DNA of 64,000 nt from Octopus vulgaris (Eukaryota). The notes under the pieces were generated by a model. It searched no databases, was not told the origin of the DNA, and saw only the letters and a list, made by a program, of their open reading frames with translations. Numbering within the stretch: position 1 is the first letter of the stretch; the number at the start of each line of letters is the position of its first letter. The stretch is taken from positions 8,370,001-8,434,000 of the forward strand of contig OX597826.1 in the NCBI GenBank assembly GCA_951406725.2, written 5' to 3'. Positions 8,746-59,215 of the stretch are shown here, in pieces. A program made the position numbers and the translations under genes.

Positions 8746-8804
8746 ATTATATTGATGAAGGAAATGAATCTTATGATTCTAATCAAGAAACGTATGTCCA
8801 TAAT
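8746..8804 (+). ncRNA. Degenerate type I hammerhead-like motif
   Basis: attat-a-TTGATGA-A-..gaatc ttat gattc..-GAAAC-GTAT-GTC^-c-ataat; C3 and the first stem I pair are mutated. Confidence 0.5.
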
Positions 8805-9011
8805 TAACCGAAGACTGTTTGATTTCATTGTTTTTCGTCTTTTTTTGCCATATGTGAGTTGCAAGTATTGTTGTCTGGGGAGACATATTTTTGTAGAAAA
8901 AGGAAATAGTAGTCCTTTGGCTGCTATTTCTAAATTTTTTCGGTATGTGATCAAGCAACTTGTTGCTAAACCCAACCCTTATTGTTATATATATATATAT
9001 ATATATATATA

Positions 9012-9316
9012 CTAGCAGTATCGCCCGGCGTTGCTCGGGTTTGTAAGGGAAATAACTGTATAAGCATTTTTAGAGAGTTACTTCCCTTATATAAACCGAG
9101 CAAAAAATGCATTAAAAATGCGGAAAAATGATGCTAAGTTTTTTTTTAAATCGTAGACTCATCGTAGACGCGCGCTAATACCCAAAAGGGCTCCATATGA
9201 ATCACAACTATAAGATACCCGCTTTTGGTTAAACTACACCGCAAAATGTGGGAGTAGTTAGGAATCTAAATCGGAGTAGACAGACACACACACAACTTCA
9301 GTTTTATATATAAAGA
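9012..9316 (-). mobile_element. Non-autonomous Helitron (305 bp)
   Basis: Minus strand A|TCTTTATATAT...CCCGAGCAACGCCGGG hairpin (9024-9039)...CTAG|T; no TSD; inserted in (TA)n. Confidence 0.88.
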
Positions 9317-9904
9317 TATATATATATATATATATATATAAATATATATATATATATATATATGCGTGTGTGTCTCAAAGCGTACGCGTGAGTGGACGGA
9401 ACCGTATGCATTTCAAGCTACAATTGCTATGGGTAGCATGAGATAAATTAGCTTCCGGGCCAAAATCCGCTTCAAACACTTTTACACAGCTTGTTAGTAA
9501 AGAATGTCTATGAGTGTAACTCCATCCTTTTAAAACTCTTTCAACCGTTACAACGTAAAATCATATCGAAAGAAATATAAACACAAAAGTAGGTGTGTGA
9601 ACGTATACGTGCCACGGAAGTTAGAATTAATTGATAAATTAAAATGAGGGACATTCAATATTATGAGTGCCTTAAAAATTTACCCCGTACGGAAATCAAA
9701 CTGGCGGCCATATTGAAACAGCTTTCTTTGAAATGTTGCCTACAGCGGGAAAGAGAAAAATACATAGCAATTAGACAATATACGATTATCAATATAAAGG
9801 TGTATATTATAGTAATCAAATGTTTCGGTAGATATAAGCTCACTCCCTCCATCAGATCGATATTATCTGTAAAGGTGCAACGGGTGGCACGTGTCAGATG
9901 TCGT

Positions 9905-9972
9905 CGAAATGATCTTGAAATGAAGTGCTTTGCCCAAGAACACAACGCAACGCCCGGTCTGGGAATCGAACC
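9905..9972 (-). mobile_element. SINE family C head fragment
   Basis: Minus strand ggttcgattcccagaccgggcgttgcgttgtgttcttgggcaaagcacttc matches 49850-49905. Confidence 0.7.
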
Positions 9973-10364
9973 ATTGCTATTACTGTATCAATAAATAAAA
10001 TAGCAGATACAACTCATTTATTGTCATATAATAAACAAACAGAAGTTCATGTAAGAAATTGACTTTTATCTTCAATTATTACATATTTTTCTCTTATAAA
10101 AACATACACATACAGGAGGAGTAAATTATATATATAATAATACTTTGAATGTGGGTCCCAAGAAACAGTAAAAGTAATTAACCGACCAACGACGAGTAAT
10201 TCTGCTAGTAGGTATATATGTATGTATATATGTATATATATACATATATATATATATATATATATATATATATATATATATATACATATATATATATATG
10301 TATGTATGTATATATATATACATATATATATATATATATGTATATATATATATATATGTATATA

Positions 10365-55700: not shown

Positions 55701-56971
55701 TTGAAAAAAAAAACTTTTTCTTCTAACGTAGACTTTTATCTTCCATCCCTTTTTCTATTTTATTCAATTCTGTTCGATGCGAGATAGACACACATATATA
55801 AACACACACACAAACAAACATTCACATATATATGCACATGAAAACACGCCGTCATACACACACATACACACATTCATACGTATATACGTATATGTATATA
55901 TATATATATATATATATATATATATATGCATGTATGTGTGTATATATATAAATATATATATATGTATGTATGTATATATTTATATGTATATGTATATACA
56001 CGTATGGGATATACATTACTGATTTATACAAAAATATTAAAAGGCTCGGTAAAAGGCATCAGAAACAGATTAAAAAAAAACAGATATAATATATAGATTT
56101 GTACATACATACACACTCTCATTTACATACACATACGTATATATATCTATATATACATAAACCATATACGCGCCGCATGCACACACACTGACACACACTC
56201 ACACACACACACACACACATATAAACACGAATACACGAAGAAGATAGTTTGAGAAAGAGAAAAGAGTTTAAATGGATAAAGTGATCGTCATATAGGTATA
56301 AATATAGACTTTTAGACAGAGATTGATGTTTTCCAAATATGTTCTGTTATATTTTCAGAACAGTAATGTACCTAATAAGACCCTTAATTCCCCTAAATAC
56401 GTACCATAATCTTCGATTCACATTTGAGAGATTTATAACTTACTACTCTGATGTGTTGCGTCCATTTTAGCTCGAAATATTGAAAATATTAATAAATTAT
56501 TTTTTACCACAATCTCTCATTGGAACATATGGCGGCTGTCCATTATTGTTAAATATTTCGCACTGTGCTTAAGACAACCGGCCTTTCATCACGTGGGTTT
56601 GGATTCGATTCTTGTTCGTTGCACCAACATGGGCGAATCTTTTCTCTGGAAAAGTGTTTGCTATCTTACTTTGAAATCAGGAGGACATAGACAGGGAAAT
56701 AACAGTCGGCAGATATGTGGAAGTTTTTATGTTGAAATGATCATTTGTGGTTATAATATCCTTTTCCACCCTAGGCACAAGGCCTTGTCTCTCAACCCAC
56801 TTCACATACATACAAGTTCAACAATTTATAAAGAGCGGTCATTAGTTTTCAGTGTGTCCTTATATAAACACGTAAAAAGGGGAATTTTTTTTTTTTTCGA
56901 TATTCATACAAATATGTGAAATAGATGGTGAACTGTAAAAATAATTAGTTTCGTAATATTTCTGTACACAT

Positions 56972-57170
56972 GGGCGACGAGTTGACAGAATCTTTAAGAC
57001 GCAGAGCAAAATCTAGACGGCATTTCGTCCATCTTCAATTCCACCGAGTTCGACTTTACCTTTTATCCTTTCAGGGTCGATAAGATAAGTACCAGTTCAA
57101 CACTGGGATCGATGTAATTGACTTAGCCCCTCCCCAGAAATGTCTGGTCTTGAGCCAAAATTTGAAATAA
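56972..57170 (+). mobile_element. SINE family B, degenerate
   Basis: ccgagttcgactttaccttttatcctttcagggtcgataagataagtaccag. Confidence 0.8.
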
Positions 57171-57529
57171 GCATTTATAAGCTCAAAATACATTCAGTTT
57201 TCTTGATCGTACAGACCATTGGTGCCATAAGCCCTTAGTATCTTGTACAGGTCACGAAACTGGCTGAGTAGTGGAAGATTTCGAAATTTCGGTTTACGAA
57301 GGGAGCCGAGTTGGAATGTTGACGCTGTTGCTGAACTTACTAGAACCAGCAGCATAATATCCCTCACGTCGAATCCTATTTCTTTCAAAGAAGAACAATT
57401 CGTTTCATAATATTGTCCAAGATATCCTATGCATCACAAACTGATGGCGGTTACTGCTGGAAAACATTTAATCAGTGTTGCTCCTGAGATTATACAACTA
57501 AACAGTAAGCGAGGCATCGTTCATCTGTT

Positions 57530-58380
57530 GTCTTTTATTTGTTCCCTGTCATTGCACTGCAGTCACTCTTGAGCACAGTCTTGAAGGGGTTAGTCGAACA
57601 AATCGACCCTAGCACTTATCGTTTATGTTTGATACTTATTCTGTCGGGCTCTATTGCCGGACCGTTAAGTTACGGAGCCATAAACAAATCGGTTGTCAAA
57701 CAGTGAGGTTACAAACAGAAAGGCAGACACTTAAACATTCACACACACGCACAAACACCTATGTAGACATCCATACACATATACATACGTATATACATAC
57801 ATACATATATATATATATATACGAACAAAACGCCTCCCGTCCCATGGATGGTGCTGAGTTGTCAAACATTTAAACCAAATTTTCTCTAAACAACTTGTCC
57901 GACCGTCCCTTAGGTCTTCCCTTTGAGAAACACTGATTTAACCTAAACAATGTTCCCACGGCTGTATCGATCGCATTCTCACCTCGAATCGATTTTTGTA
58001 ATTTTTTCAAGACTTATACACGCCCTGATTCTGTCAGTATCTACATAACAAATTTGAGCGCAATCGGATGAAGGATGCCCGAGATCCTAGAAGACAGTCA
58101 GAACGGATTTTATATATATATATATATATATATATATATATATATATATATATATATATATATATATATATATATATATATATGTATGTATATGTATATG
58201 TATGTATGTATGTATGTATGTATATATATAACACGGGCTTCCTCCAAATTCACTCACCAGGCGTTGGTCGGCTCTGGGTTATAATAGAAGACAATTTCCC
58301 AGTGTCGCGCAGTAGGATTGAACCGGAAACCACATTGTTGCAAAGCGAGAGTGGAAACCAAACAGTTACGCCTGCACCTA
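57530..58380 (-). mobile_element. SINE family A split at its internal TA tract (57530-57800 and 58232-58380)
   Basis: 3' half ttagtcgaacaaatcgaccc..taagttacgg; 5' half acgggcttc..aaattcactcac..tagaagaca..gaaccggaaacca. Confidence 0.75.
57822..58115 (-). mobile_element. Degenerate non-autonomous Helitron nested in a SINE
   Basis: Subterminal hairpin ccgtcc-cat-ggatgg about 15 nt from the left end; right end aaatttgagcgcaatcgg..agacag..tttTATATA organised like 9012-9316; CTRR end degraded. Confidence 0.55.
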
Positions 58381-59049
58381 TAGCAACATAACTATTACAC
58401 ACCTCTGTTGCTAAACTTGCATCTTATGAATCCATACAAAATTCAATTATTTGAAACACGAAAAACTATGGTAAACGATCATTGCTATATAGGATAAAAA
58501 TTACATATAATCAACACCTAAGAAGTCGAGCTGCCGTACAAGATTCTGCTTGCATCGTGGAAGAGTTTATTAATAGCAGCCATAAAAATACACATATAAT
58601 TTTTTTTTTATATTTAATTTTAATTTCCGAATATCAGTGTATATTAATTTTGATAGTCTTTCGTCTTACGTCTATGACTGAGTGAAACTCAACTTCATCT
58701 ACTTCTCGTGTTTATTTTCCCTAGTGTTGTAAATTAAGTTATGAGACTGTTTAATGTAATTATATACTGATACATACGTTACTGAAGGAAAATGTTTTAA
58801 ACTTATAATCCTTAGATTAATTTCTATACCGAAATATTTGGTTATTATGCCACAGGGTGTTTCAAATAACTTTAACCTATTCGATTGCATATAATGATGT
58901 ATGCGTATATATACACACACAAACACACGCACACACAGAGCTATATATATATATATATATATATATATATATACATATATATATTATGTATGTATGTATG
59001 CATGTATGTATGTATGTATGTATGTATGTATGCATCATGTTAAACCGTT

Positions 59050-59215
59050 AATCCCCACACATTTTCTTCTCTCTACATTTCCCCTCTCAATCTTGTCTGT
59101 TGATTAACTTAGGCACGAAACGTCACAAACTTTTCCATTCTACCCAAGCGTTAAACTAGTACACCAGCTTGTTGTTCCTTCACTTGCCTTCGTGTTTTGT
59201 TTTCTCTTAATTTGA
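59050..59215 (+). mobile_element. Old family H1 copy with hammerhead-like motif at 59093-59128
   Basis: ttgt-CTGTTGA-..-GAAAC-GTC^-acaa followed by ccc.agcgttaaacta as in the 48760 copy. Confidence 0.65.

What the first reader, a model, noticed from the sequence alone, without database searches (positions are those of the whole stretch)
8746..59128. At least 11 hammerhead-like motifs from several unrelated short elements: a diverse ribozyme-bearing, (TA)n-associated retroelement system
Seen: motifs at 8746(+), 12462(-), 12713(-), 33130(+), 35581(+), 41578(-), 48238(+), 48612(+), 48827(+), 49056(+) and 59093(+), about one per 6 kb. Flanking sequences differ but the topology is shared: stem I, CUGANGA-like core, stem II, GAAAC, a zero-loop or self-complementary stem III (ACGU, ACAUAUGU, ACAC-G-GUGU), GUH, stem I'. 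Most carriers abut (TA)n. Established: Penelope-like elements and retrozymes carry minimal type I hammerheads whose palindromic stem III lets them cleave as dimers. Inference: this genome hosts many non-autonomous PLE-mobilised ribozyme families at very high density, which could cut host pre-mRNA or yield small circular RNAs. Only three copies (33130, 41578, 49056) have fully canonical core nucleotides.
Basis: partly seen in the sequence, partly recalled or inferred. Interest (0 to 1): 0.85.

Follow-up and report, generated by a model that had tools for sequence, protein, structure and literature searches.

The report
Octopus Penelope hammerheads with altered cores
All eleven motifs are real hammerhead-shaped RNA motifs at the tail ends of Penelope-type jumping genes and their likely short parasites, a known kind; but the commonest family has kept a change at a normally fixed catalytic letter (A6 to U) in about 15,000 intact copies, so it is likely a slow, protein-helped ribozyme, and it offers a natural test of whether these elements need to cut themselves at all.

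Summary
All 11 motifs sit at the stated places and exceed chance (3 canonical hits vs 0.03 in shuffles). They belong to 8 dispersed families, not 11. Six sites are truncated 3' ends of protein-coding Penelope-like elements: family A (4 sites, Neptune/Nematis-type RT + GIY-YIG) and F, G (Hydra-like). Five are short non-coding partners: C and E tandem retrozyme-like units, B tRNA-headed, D and H. Five window copies are decayed. A 0.8 Mb sample gives one copy per 13.6 kb, about 200,000 genome-wide. This is the known minimal hammerhead of Penelope elements, and the scan met similar cases in other genomes. Cutting of host pre-mRNA and circular RNAs have no support here. What stands out: family A has CUGUNGA (A6U) in 96 of the first 100 of 15,487 exact motif matches. 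Across five subfamilies, 0 of 30 constrained hammerhead columns change; only N7 and H17, the free positions, do. U4C is fixed in C and common in D; E has U3 with G8. Cleavage is untested, and Lünse 2017 could not be read. Verdict: new variant of a known kind, interest 0.4.

The parts
8500..8985 (+). Family E unit, non-coding, about 550-580 bp period in partial tandems, ends in (TA)n; short inverted piece at its 5' end
   Evidence: no hit to three PLE protein queries in 11 of 11 loci
8747..8803 (+). Family E hammerhead, decayed copy; family state U3 with G8 kept (13 of 13), C4 in 7 of 13, stem III ACGUACGU; predicted cut after 8798
12372..12564 (-). Family A 3' end fragment (subfamily N7=A, H17=A), ends in (TA)n
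12462..12497 (-). Family A minimal hammerhead with A6U core (CUGUAGA), both stems intact; predicted cut at 12466
12655..13118 (-). Family H element (12655-12936) with an inverted piece of the same family (12935-13118); no adjoining PLE coding found
12713..12760 (-). Family H hammerhead, decayed in stems II and III; family majority is canonical, stem III ACAGCUGU
32826..32910 (+). tRNA-like head of family B (A-box/B-box-like; degenerate in this copy), followed by a simple-repeat spacer
   Evidence: head found upstream in 14 of 25 B copies with intact 5' block; ARAGORN default finds no tRNA
33130..33175 (+). Family B minimal hammerhead, canonical core, stem III ACGU; predicted cut after 33170; block spans 33080-33229
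35337..35799 (+). Family C: one 365-bp unit plus about 100-bp repeat of its start (35337-35430 / 35702-35795, 98%), young (best hits 94-99%), ends at (TC)n(TA)n; retrozyme-like
35581..35626 (+). Family C hammerhead with fixed U4C core (CCGAUGA in 25 of 26), stem III ACACGGUGU; predicted cut after 35620
41494..42025 (-). Family A 3' end fragment with part of the element's 3' UTR, ends in (TA)n
41578..41613 (-). Family A hammerhead with canonical A6 (CUGAGGA); nested inside a U6 clade, so likely a reversion; stem II reduced to 3 bp
   Evidence: support 0.83
47750..47989 (+). C-terminal fragment of a Hydra-like GIY-YIG endonuclease (CxxC before E/N; CxH-like after) of family F
   Evidence: motif description in PMC8557442 section 11
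48240..48325 (+). Family F hammerhead, long loop II, stem III ACAUAUGU; this copy has a broken core (CGAAUGA); family majority canonical; element ends about 48376
48611..48693 (+). Family G hammerhead, long loop II, decayed (core deletion); family majority canonical; 3' end of a second Hydra-like PLE; fragment about 48522-48724 with inverted 5' piece
48760..48954 (+). Family A 3' end fragment (subfamily N7=C, H17=A), ends in (TA)n
48827..48862 (+). Family A minimal hammerhead with A6U core (CUGUCGA); predicted cut after 48858
48985..49180 (+). Family D, about 200-bp non-coding element with recurrent 5' end, flanked by (TA)n; sister of the family A terminus
49056..49090 (+). Family D minimal hammerhead, canonical core here (U4C in 9 of 15 sampled copies); predicted cut after 49086
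59034..59218 (+). Family A, oldest subfamily (11% mean divergence), hammerhead 59093-59128 with U6 core and broken stem II

Best explanation
The motifs are minimal type I hammerheads in the 3' terminal repeats of Penelope-like retroelements (families A, F, G) and of short non-coding elements likely mobilised by them (B, C, D, E, H); the solitary genomic copies are likely inert, and the dominant family A carries a lineage-fixed A6U core that likely still cuts, slowly and only as a protein-assisted dimer in tandem element RNA. Mechanism, step by step. (1) Shown: copies share a fixed 3' end about 90 nt past the hammerhead in A and D, usually at (TA)n, with variable 5' truncation and frequent inverted 5' pieces; in A, F and G the longer copies run into RT and/or GIY-YIG coding sequence. 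(2) Inferred from PLE literature: the element's endonuclease nicks (TA)n and reverse transcription starts just downstream of the hammerhead, so most insertions keep one hammerhead. (3) Inferred: in transcripts of tandem copies two hammerheads pair through the palindromic stem III and cleave after UH, helped by the element's protein. (4) Shown: selection has kept the hammerhead pattern in family A with U6. Inferred: this pattern reflects weak but retained cleavage.
For: Identity: descriptor vs shuffles. RT + C-terminal EN upstream of family A ends: L018/L020/L006, L165 656-aa frame with RVT_1 E=6e-8, CX2-5CxxC linker and CxxC inside GIY-YIG. Homologues carry PF00078 + PF26215, some PF01541. Hydra-like EN in 14 of 14 F loci and upstream of G in 4 of 14 loci. 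Fixed 3' ends and (TA)n. Covariation: stem I C-G (73 of 90 A) vs G-C (37 of 46 D); within F, C-G 16 / U-A 9 in stem I and A-U 22 / G-C 5 in stem II. Constraint: 0 of 30 constrained columns differ among five A subfamilies whose flanks differ 7-34%; 32 of 82 downstream columns differ (Fisher 8e-6); only N7 (C,C,G,A,U) and H17 (C,A,U,A,U, never G) vary. U6 is ancestral in the tree and present behind the longest frames. A natural A6C hammerhead has low but detectable activity and U4C works in vivo (PMC3088659). A PLE hammerhead cleaved only with its protein (PMC11167929).
Against: No cleavage data. CUGA-turn mutants all had low activity and no rescue in a full mutational scan (PMC9901934). PLE insertion in vitro did not need hammerhead cleavage, and no RNA-seq ends were found at the cut site (PMC11167929). 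The double-hammerhead fold of the ACGU families lies 8-19 kcal/mol above the best fold of a modelled tandem (A -9.4 vs -17.7; D -4.6 vs -20.0; B -13.9 vs -27.3). Loop 2 (GUAG) is also invariant, which a cleavage-only model does not require. No family A element with two same-strand hammerheads was seen among the 10 long loci examined. Alignment columns are not independent and subfamilies came from a tree of about 180 columns with modest support. No autonomous partner was assigned to B, C, D, E or H.
Confidence: 0.6

Rival explanations
1. Same elements, but the family A motif no longer cuts. It is kept as a folded RNA handle for dimerisation, for binding the element's protein, or for positioning internal reverse-transcription start about 90 nt downstream.
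For: A6 and U4 changes lower activity (PMC3088659, PMC9901934). Cleavage-dead mutants insert normally in vitro (PMC11167929). Naiad PLEs thrive without canonical hammerheads (PMC8557442). Several families here tolerate different core changes (A6U, U4C, U3 with G8), which looks like relaxed selection on chemistry. Loop 2 is invariant.
Against: The only columns that vary are the two a hammerhead leaves free, and H17 is never G. C3-G8, G12 and GAAA are all kept. A fold-only role could produce this too, so the argument is not decisive.
Confidence: 0.27
2. One reading: many independent non-autonomous ribozyme families whose dispersed copies cut host pre-mRNA or release small circular RNAs.
For: Five families look non-coding. 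C is young with same-strand 365-bp tandems in 4 of 13 loci and a favourable double-hammerhead fold (-24.7 vs -27.6); E and H folds are also near-optimal. Retrozyme circRNAs are known in mussels (PMC7229834). About 45,000 copies may have canonical cores. F, G, A and D lie on one strand within 900 bp in this window.
Against: Six of 11 sites are ends of coding PLEs. 51 of 59 sampled copies have no same-strand neighbour within 1 kb. Single minimal motifs showed no cleavage (PMC4209133). No host exon was recognised among the 100 longest of 171 candidate frames (short exons would be missed).
Confidence: 0.08
3. The conserved 36-nt block in family A is a DNA-level signal (internal promoter or endonuclease site) that only resembles a hammerhead because it descends from one.
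For: PLE terminal repeats hold promoters (PMC6765202 passage). Invariant columns show no covariation within A.
Against: Variation falls exactly on N7 and H17. The A/D difference in stem I is compensatory.
Confidence: 0.04
4. Chance matches in AT-rich repetitive DNA.
For: Monomer folds are no better than shuffles; 5 of 11 fail the descriptor.
Against: 3 vs 0.03 in the window and 9 vs 0, 0, 0 in 800 kb; 15,487 exact matches vs 0 for the control; covariation.
Confidence: 0.01

Closest known systems
Minimal hammerheads (min-HHR) of metazoan Penelope-like elements (Cervera and De la Pena 2014, PMC4209133; Lünse et al. 2017, title only)
   Same: Type I topology, short stem I, extra nucleotide after A9, G10.1-C11.1, palindromic or absent stem III, location in terminal repeats, mostly solitary truncated copies, many families per genome.
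   Different: Their reported core variant is U3-A8. A6U, U4C and U3 with G8 as family states did not appear in the text read or in the supplement hits. About 200,000 copies here vs 2,000-9,000 reported for fluke, coelacanth and frog (their counts need a canonical core).
Neptune/Nematis-type EN+ PLEs (as described in Craig et al. 2021, PMC8557442)
   Same: Family A: RT, then CX2-5CxxC linker, then C-terminal GIY-YIG with two cysteines; microsatellite targeting; inverted 5' copies.
   Different: A6U hammerhead; long low-complexity 3' UTR. Clade not placed by RT phylogeny here.
Hydra-clade PLEs (PMC8557442 section 11)
   Same: F and G: endonuclease end with CxxC and CxH around E and N; canonical hammerhead; F abuts (TA)n.
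   Different: RT and the CxCX5C linker were not recovered; all copies seen are broken; hammerheads have a 50-60 nt loop II.
Non-LTR retrozymes (Cervera and De la Pena 2020, PMC7229834; Li et al. 2026, bioRxiv 10.64898/2026.07.22.740005)
   Same: C: non-coding 365-bp unit with a type I hammerhead in tandem and monomeric copies; PLE-like insertion pattern. E is similar at 550-580 bp.
   Different: Fixed U4C (C) or U3/C4 (E) cores that a canonical-core descriptor would miss; circRNA not shown.
Schistosome Sm-alpha / Sj-alpha SINE-like elements with promoter plus hammerhead (seen via PMC6765202 and PMC6155905 legends)
   Same: Family B: tRNA-like A/B-box head followed by a hammerhead.
   Different: B has a minimal PLE-type hammerhead, an (AAT)n spacer and PLE-style inverted 5' copies.
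Natural hammerhead core variants (Perreault et al. 2011, PMC3088659)
   Same: Position 6 (A6C, phage) and U4C (viroid) variants exist and keep low activity.
   Different: Those are rare single cases; here U6 is the ancestral state of a lineage with an estimated 60,000-80,000 copies.

Membership tests
PLE minimal hammerhead | Type I topology with stems I and II paired | tested here: met
   Majority stems pair in all 8 families; compensatory pairs in F and between A and D
PLE minimal hammerhead | Self-complementary, very short stem III | tested here: met
   ACGU (A, B, D), ACGUACGU (E), ACAUAUGU (F, G), ACAGCUGU (H), ACACGGUGU with one central mismatch (C)
PLE minimal hammerhead | Extra nucleotide between A9 and stem II | tested here: met
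   Present in A, B, D, E, H; absent in F, G; ambiguous in C, where the A can pair
PLE minimal hammerhead | Canonical core CUGANGA...GAAA...UH: families B, F, G, H | tested here: met
   Majority canonical: B 15 of 24, F 16 of 27, G 12 of 21, H 13 of 23 fully canonical
PLE minimal hammerhead | Canonical core: families A, C, E and part of D | tested here: not met
   A: U6 in 82 of 90, and 96 of 100; C: C4 25 of 26; E: U3 13 of 13; D: C4 9 of 15 sampled. These are variants, not canonical members
PLE minimal hammerhead | Located in the terminal repeat 3' of an RT-EN frame | tested here: met
   A, F, G; not for B, C, D, E, H
PLE minimal hammerhead | Self-cleavage as dimer | not testable with these tools
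   Only energy models
Neptune/Nematis-type PLE (family A) | RT followed by CX2-5CxxC linker and C-terminal GIY-YIG with CCHH | tested here: met
   L165, L166, L169 frames
Neptune/Nematis-type PLE (family A) | RT phylogeny places it in the Neptune clade | not tested
   No named reference set held; 'Neptune' is my recalled label
Hydra-clade PLE (F, G) | EN without CCHH, CxxC and CxH around E and N | tested here: met
   against the description
Hydra-clade PLE (F, G) | RWK/DKT motifs in RT and CxCX5C linker | tested here: inconclusive
   Motif scan of 9 F loci found YIG-like starts in 3 but no RT or linker within 1.5 kb flanks
Non-LTR retrozyme (C) | Non-coding tandem unit of 170-400 nt with a type I hammerhead per unit | tested here: met
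   365-bp period; 4 of 13 loci with two or more same-strand hammerheads
Non-LTR retrozyme (C) | Canonical, active hammerhead | tested here: not met
   U4C fixed; activity untested
Non-LTR retrozyme (C) | Accumulates as circular RNA | not testable with these tools
   Only contigs available
Pol III-headed hammerhead SINE (B) | tRNA-like head with A and B boxes upstream of the hammerhead | tested here: inconclusive
   Head upstream in 14 of 25 copies, strict A/B regex in 3; ARAGORN default 0 of 16 sources, relaxed calls inconsistent

The most novel reading that the evidence does not exclude
The most abundant Penelope lineage of this genome has replicated, through at least five subfamilies up to 34% apart, with a hammerhead lacking the 'invariant' A6, yet under hammerhead-specific selection. 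It is either a protein-dependent ribozyme with a rewired CUGU turn or a hammerhead fold turned into a non-cutting RNA handle. Together with fixed U4C and U3-G8 families, it would mean canonical-core searches miss most PLE hammerheads in such genomes.
Probability: 0.4. Interest if true: 0.65.

Novelty: new variant of a known kind. Interest (0 to 1): 0.4.

Why it matters
The system as a whole is known. The open question in the field is what Penelope hammerheads do: they cut poorly, and cleavage-dead mutants still insert in vitro. This genome supplies a natural experiment: a very successful lineage with a fixed A6U core, a likely A6 revertant sub-lineage, a canonical sister family (D) that itself splits into U4 and C4 forms, all with the same stem II and palindrome. 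A few transcription assays on natural copies would show whether selection keeps chemistry or only fold. It also warns that canonical-core descriptors undercount: only 13 of 48 sampled core-covering copies are canonical.

Tried and rejected
Rfam: no hammerhead hit in the two narrow searches; whole-window output dominated by microsatellite-microRNA artefacts, 597 of 747 rows not seen. The repeat finder was swamped by microsatellites; a masked self-BLAST replaced it. Monomer folding gave no signal. The apparent compensatory stem I of the 59093 copy is private to that copy; 19 relatives keep the usual stem, so it was rejected as covariation evidence. The idea that the canonical D copy is only CpG decay of CCGACGA was rejected: D has both a CUGACGA group and a CCGACGA clade; the same doubt remains open for U4 vs C4 in E. 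A splice donor at the cut site was rejected because H17 varies. tblastn hits of residues 1-99 of the L166 frame were microsatellite artefacts and were dropped. RT or EN hits near H in L219 and L221, near C in L039 and near A in L002 lie downstream, on the other strand or far away and were read as neighbouring insertions. Pfam found nothing in three short L018 peptides and no host exon in 100 of 171 window frames (one sub-threshold low-complexity hit). Expression: no RNA holder listed for family C; four runs laid were contigs only, with no ends or informative joints. Lünse et al. 2017 is not held. Paper searches for A6U/U4C/C3U, hammerhead + octopus, and PLE core variants and supplement searches (one html file not searched) found no report of an A6U PLE hammerhead.

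
Full report
Setting. The window is 34% GC and 31% simple repeat. It lies in a 2.8-Gb assembly of 227 contigs. Size and microsatellite load point to an octopus; that is my inference, not a tool result.

Observation. All 11 motifs are present at the stated strands and, within 2 nt, coordinates. 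A descriptor finds three canonical hits (33135+, 41609-, 49060+) against a mean of 0.03 in 30 block shuffles, and six with one core mismatch against 0.77. Five sites (8746, 12713, 48238, 48612, 59093) fail it. In 80 stretches of 10 kb taken at fixed round coordinates, a similar descriptor gives 9 canonical hits vs 0, 0, 0 in three shuffles, and 23 vs 6, 3, 2 with one mismatch. Eight of 11 elements abut (TA)n at the 3' end vs 14% of random positions. Monomer folds are no better than shuffles, as expected for motifs without a stable stem III.

Families. Masked self-BLAST and profiles group the 11 sites into 8 families: A (12462, 41578, 48827, 59093), B (33130), C (35581), D (49056), E (8746), F (48238), G (48612), H (12713). 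Each has 1,187-2,750 first-look candidates in the genome, of which 40 were scored per search. The 800-kb sample holds 59 non-overlapping copies (A 23, D 15, F 8, B 7, G 3, H 3, C 0, E 0). That extrapolates to about 206,000 (157,000-266,000), of which about 168,000 cover the core and about 45,000 are fully canonical. Families absent from this window were not counted.

Who carries them. Family A copies end at a fixed point followed mostly by (TA)n and are 5'-truncated to variable extents. Longer copies run into an RT thumb, a CX2-5CxxC linker and a GIY-YIG domain with two cysteines. The endonuclease piece has 15,904 candidates. Of ten 8-kb loci chosen for long frames, seven show the motif by pattern, all with U6; L165 has a 656-aa stop-free frame (its first 100 residues are an inverted end piece) with RVT_1 at E=6e-8. 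Homologues at up to 64% identity carry PF00078 and PF26215, some PF01541. This is the Neptune/Nematis architecture of PMC8557442; the clade was not placed by tree. Family F follows an endonuclease end in the window itself (47750-47989) and in 14 of 14 loci; G does so in 4 of 14 loci. Both match the Hydra-clade description, CxxC and CxH around E and N. For B, C, D, E and H no adjoining coding sequence was found with three PLE protein queries in 72 loci with 1.5-kb flanks (neighbouring hits discussed under Tried and rejected). C is a young 365-bp unit in partial tandems and inverted pairs, ending at (TA)n, with same-strand hammerhead tandems in 4 of 13 loci. E has a 550-580-bp period. D is about 200 bp with a recurrent 5' end. 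B has a tRNA-like head and (AAT)n spacer upstream in 14 of 25 copies, though ARAGORN at default calls no tRNA.

Structure. Majority stems pair in all eight families with different sequences. Compensatory pairs occur between A and D (C-G 73 of 90, G-C 37 of 46) and within F. Modelled double-hammerheads lie within 0-4 kcal/mol of the best tandem fold for C, E, F, G and H, but 8-19 kcal/mol above it for the ACGU families A, B and D (the first four were fixed-structure evaluations, the last four constrained folds).

Core variants. B, F, G and H have canonical majority cores; their odd window copies (F, G, H) are decay. A, C, E and part of D do not: A has U6 in 16 of 18 sampled and 82 of 90 held copies; C has C4 in 25 of 26; E has U3 in 13 of 13 with G8 kept and C4 in 7; D has C4 in 9 of 15 sampled. 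A whole-genome exact search of the family A motif with positions 6-7 free gives 15,487 matches, control 0; 96 of the 100 listed (the first on contig 1) have U6, 2 A, 1 C, 1 G. In a tree of 125 copies including D as outgroup, U6 runs through all A subfamilies, and the two CUGAGGA copies, including 41578, nest inside a U6 clade (support 0.83); three scattered CUGAUGA copies also occur. Across five subfamilies (82 copies, assigned by hand from that tree; about 24 unplaced A copies left out), flanks differ 7-34%, yet 0 of 30 constrained hammerhead columns differ. Only N7 (C, C, G, A, U) and H17 (C, A, U, A, U) vary; loop 2 is invariant too. Against 32 of 82 downstream columns, Fisher P=8e-6 (columns not independent). 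So the replicating lineage kept a hammerhead-specific pattern with U at position 6.

Mechanism. Best reading: the PLE protein nicks (TA)n and starts reverse transcription just downstream of the hammerhead, so each truncated insertion keeps one motif; in tandem RNA two motifs pair through stem III and cut with protein help; solitary copies are inert. The insertion anatomy is shown; cleavage is inferred. For the U6 family I favour slow, assisted cleavage over a non-cutting handle by about 2 to 1. Natural A6C and U4C variants keep low activity (PMC3088659), and a PLE hammerhead needs its protein (PMC11167929). Against this, CUGA mutants are weak and unrescued (PMC9901934) and cleavage was dispensable for insertion in vitro (PMC11167929). 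Host pre-mRNA cutting is unsupported: 51 of 59 sampled copies lack a same-strand neighbour within 1 kb, and no host exon was recognised. Sequencing runs were uninformative.

Literature seen. PMC4209133: text parts 1-2 of 4 and a supplement term search. bioRxiv 10.64898/2026.07.22.740005: part 1 of 5. PMC8557442: passages, section 11, supplement term search. PMC3088659: passages and section 8. Passages only: PMC6765202, PMC11167929, PMC7229834, PMC13282606 (octopus repeat annotation, lists Penelope families, no mention of ribozyme or hammerhead), PMC9901934, PMC13725137, PMC11300833, PMC6155905. Lünse et al. 2017: title only. The searches found no A6U PLE hammerhead; that paper and repeat databases could still hold it.

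Earlier scan notes. Several reports on other genomes reached the same 'known PLE minimal hammerhead' verdict; none on this genome, and the word A6U occurs in none.

Verdict. Real, mostly known. The lineage-fixed, selectively kept A6U core is a new variant as far as I could check and makes an open question testable. Novelty: new variant of a known kind. Interest 0.4.

Noticed in passing
window 48875-48950 and 49110-49180: A and D share a GAGCGT block 20-25 nt past the cut site, followed by an ACTAAT/AATAAT motif and a pyrimidine tract, despite about 50% divergence elsewhere. It could re-pair with the 3' strand of stem II, or be a branch-point-like or RT-start signal.
   Followed up: partly
window 47750-49180: Four different PLE-type ends (F, G, A, D) stacked on one strand within 1.4 kb, separated by microsatellites. 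F and G share the stem III palindrome ACAUAUGU, A and D share ACGU, so mixed dimers are formally possible. A and D are also adjacent in L108 and L148.
   Followed up: partly
window 38819-39201, 37881-38098, 57034-57131, 5561-5671, 36661-36764, 7896-7998: A 184-bp tandem dimer and dispersed copies of another abundant short repeat family (SINE-like; label recalled).
   Followed up: no
window 7497-7895, 14044-14468, 29977-30917, 33480-33894, 42322-42948, 45839-46196, 49646-49783, 57531-58381, 63664-63842: A bipartite repeat family with a microsatellite in its middle, at least 10 copies in the window; more abundant here than any hammerhead family.
   Followed up: no
window 39212-39404, 49790-49907, 50283-50534, 51560-51818, 9916-9970: A third dispersed family of about 200-250 bp, with inverted copies clustered at 49.8-51.8 kb.
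   Followed up: no
window 9012-9305: A 290-bp element between two (TA)n runs that starts with CTAG and a GC-rich hairpin; resembles a non-autonomous Helitron (recalled, untested).
   Followed up: no
window 35412-35491: This part of the family C unit has several times the contig depth of the rest, and contigs leave it with other flanks, suggesting a related, more abundant family shares the C terminus.
   Followed up: no
L169 oriented 5516-7890: A 2.4-kb near-perfect inverted repeat (98%) starts right at the (TA)n tail of a young family A element and reappears in L167.
   Followed up: no
L103, L104; L143; L138; L085; L145; L116: Further hammerhead-like motifs outside the eight families in the random sample, including one with a UUGAYAA (U3-A8) core seen three times.
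   Followed up: no
L219 370-947; L039 61-457: Fragments of a more distant PLE-type RT (26-28% identity to family A) near H and C copies; candidate partners or chance neighbours.
   Followed up: no
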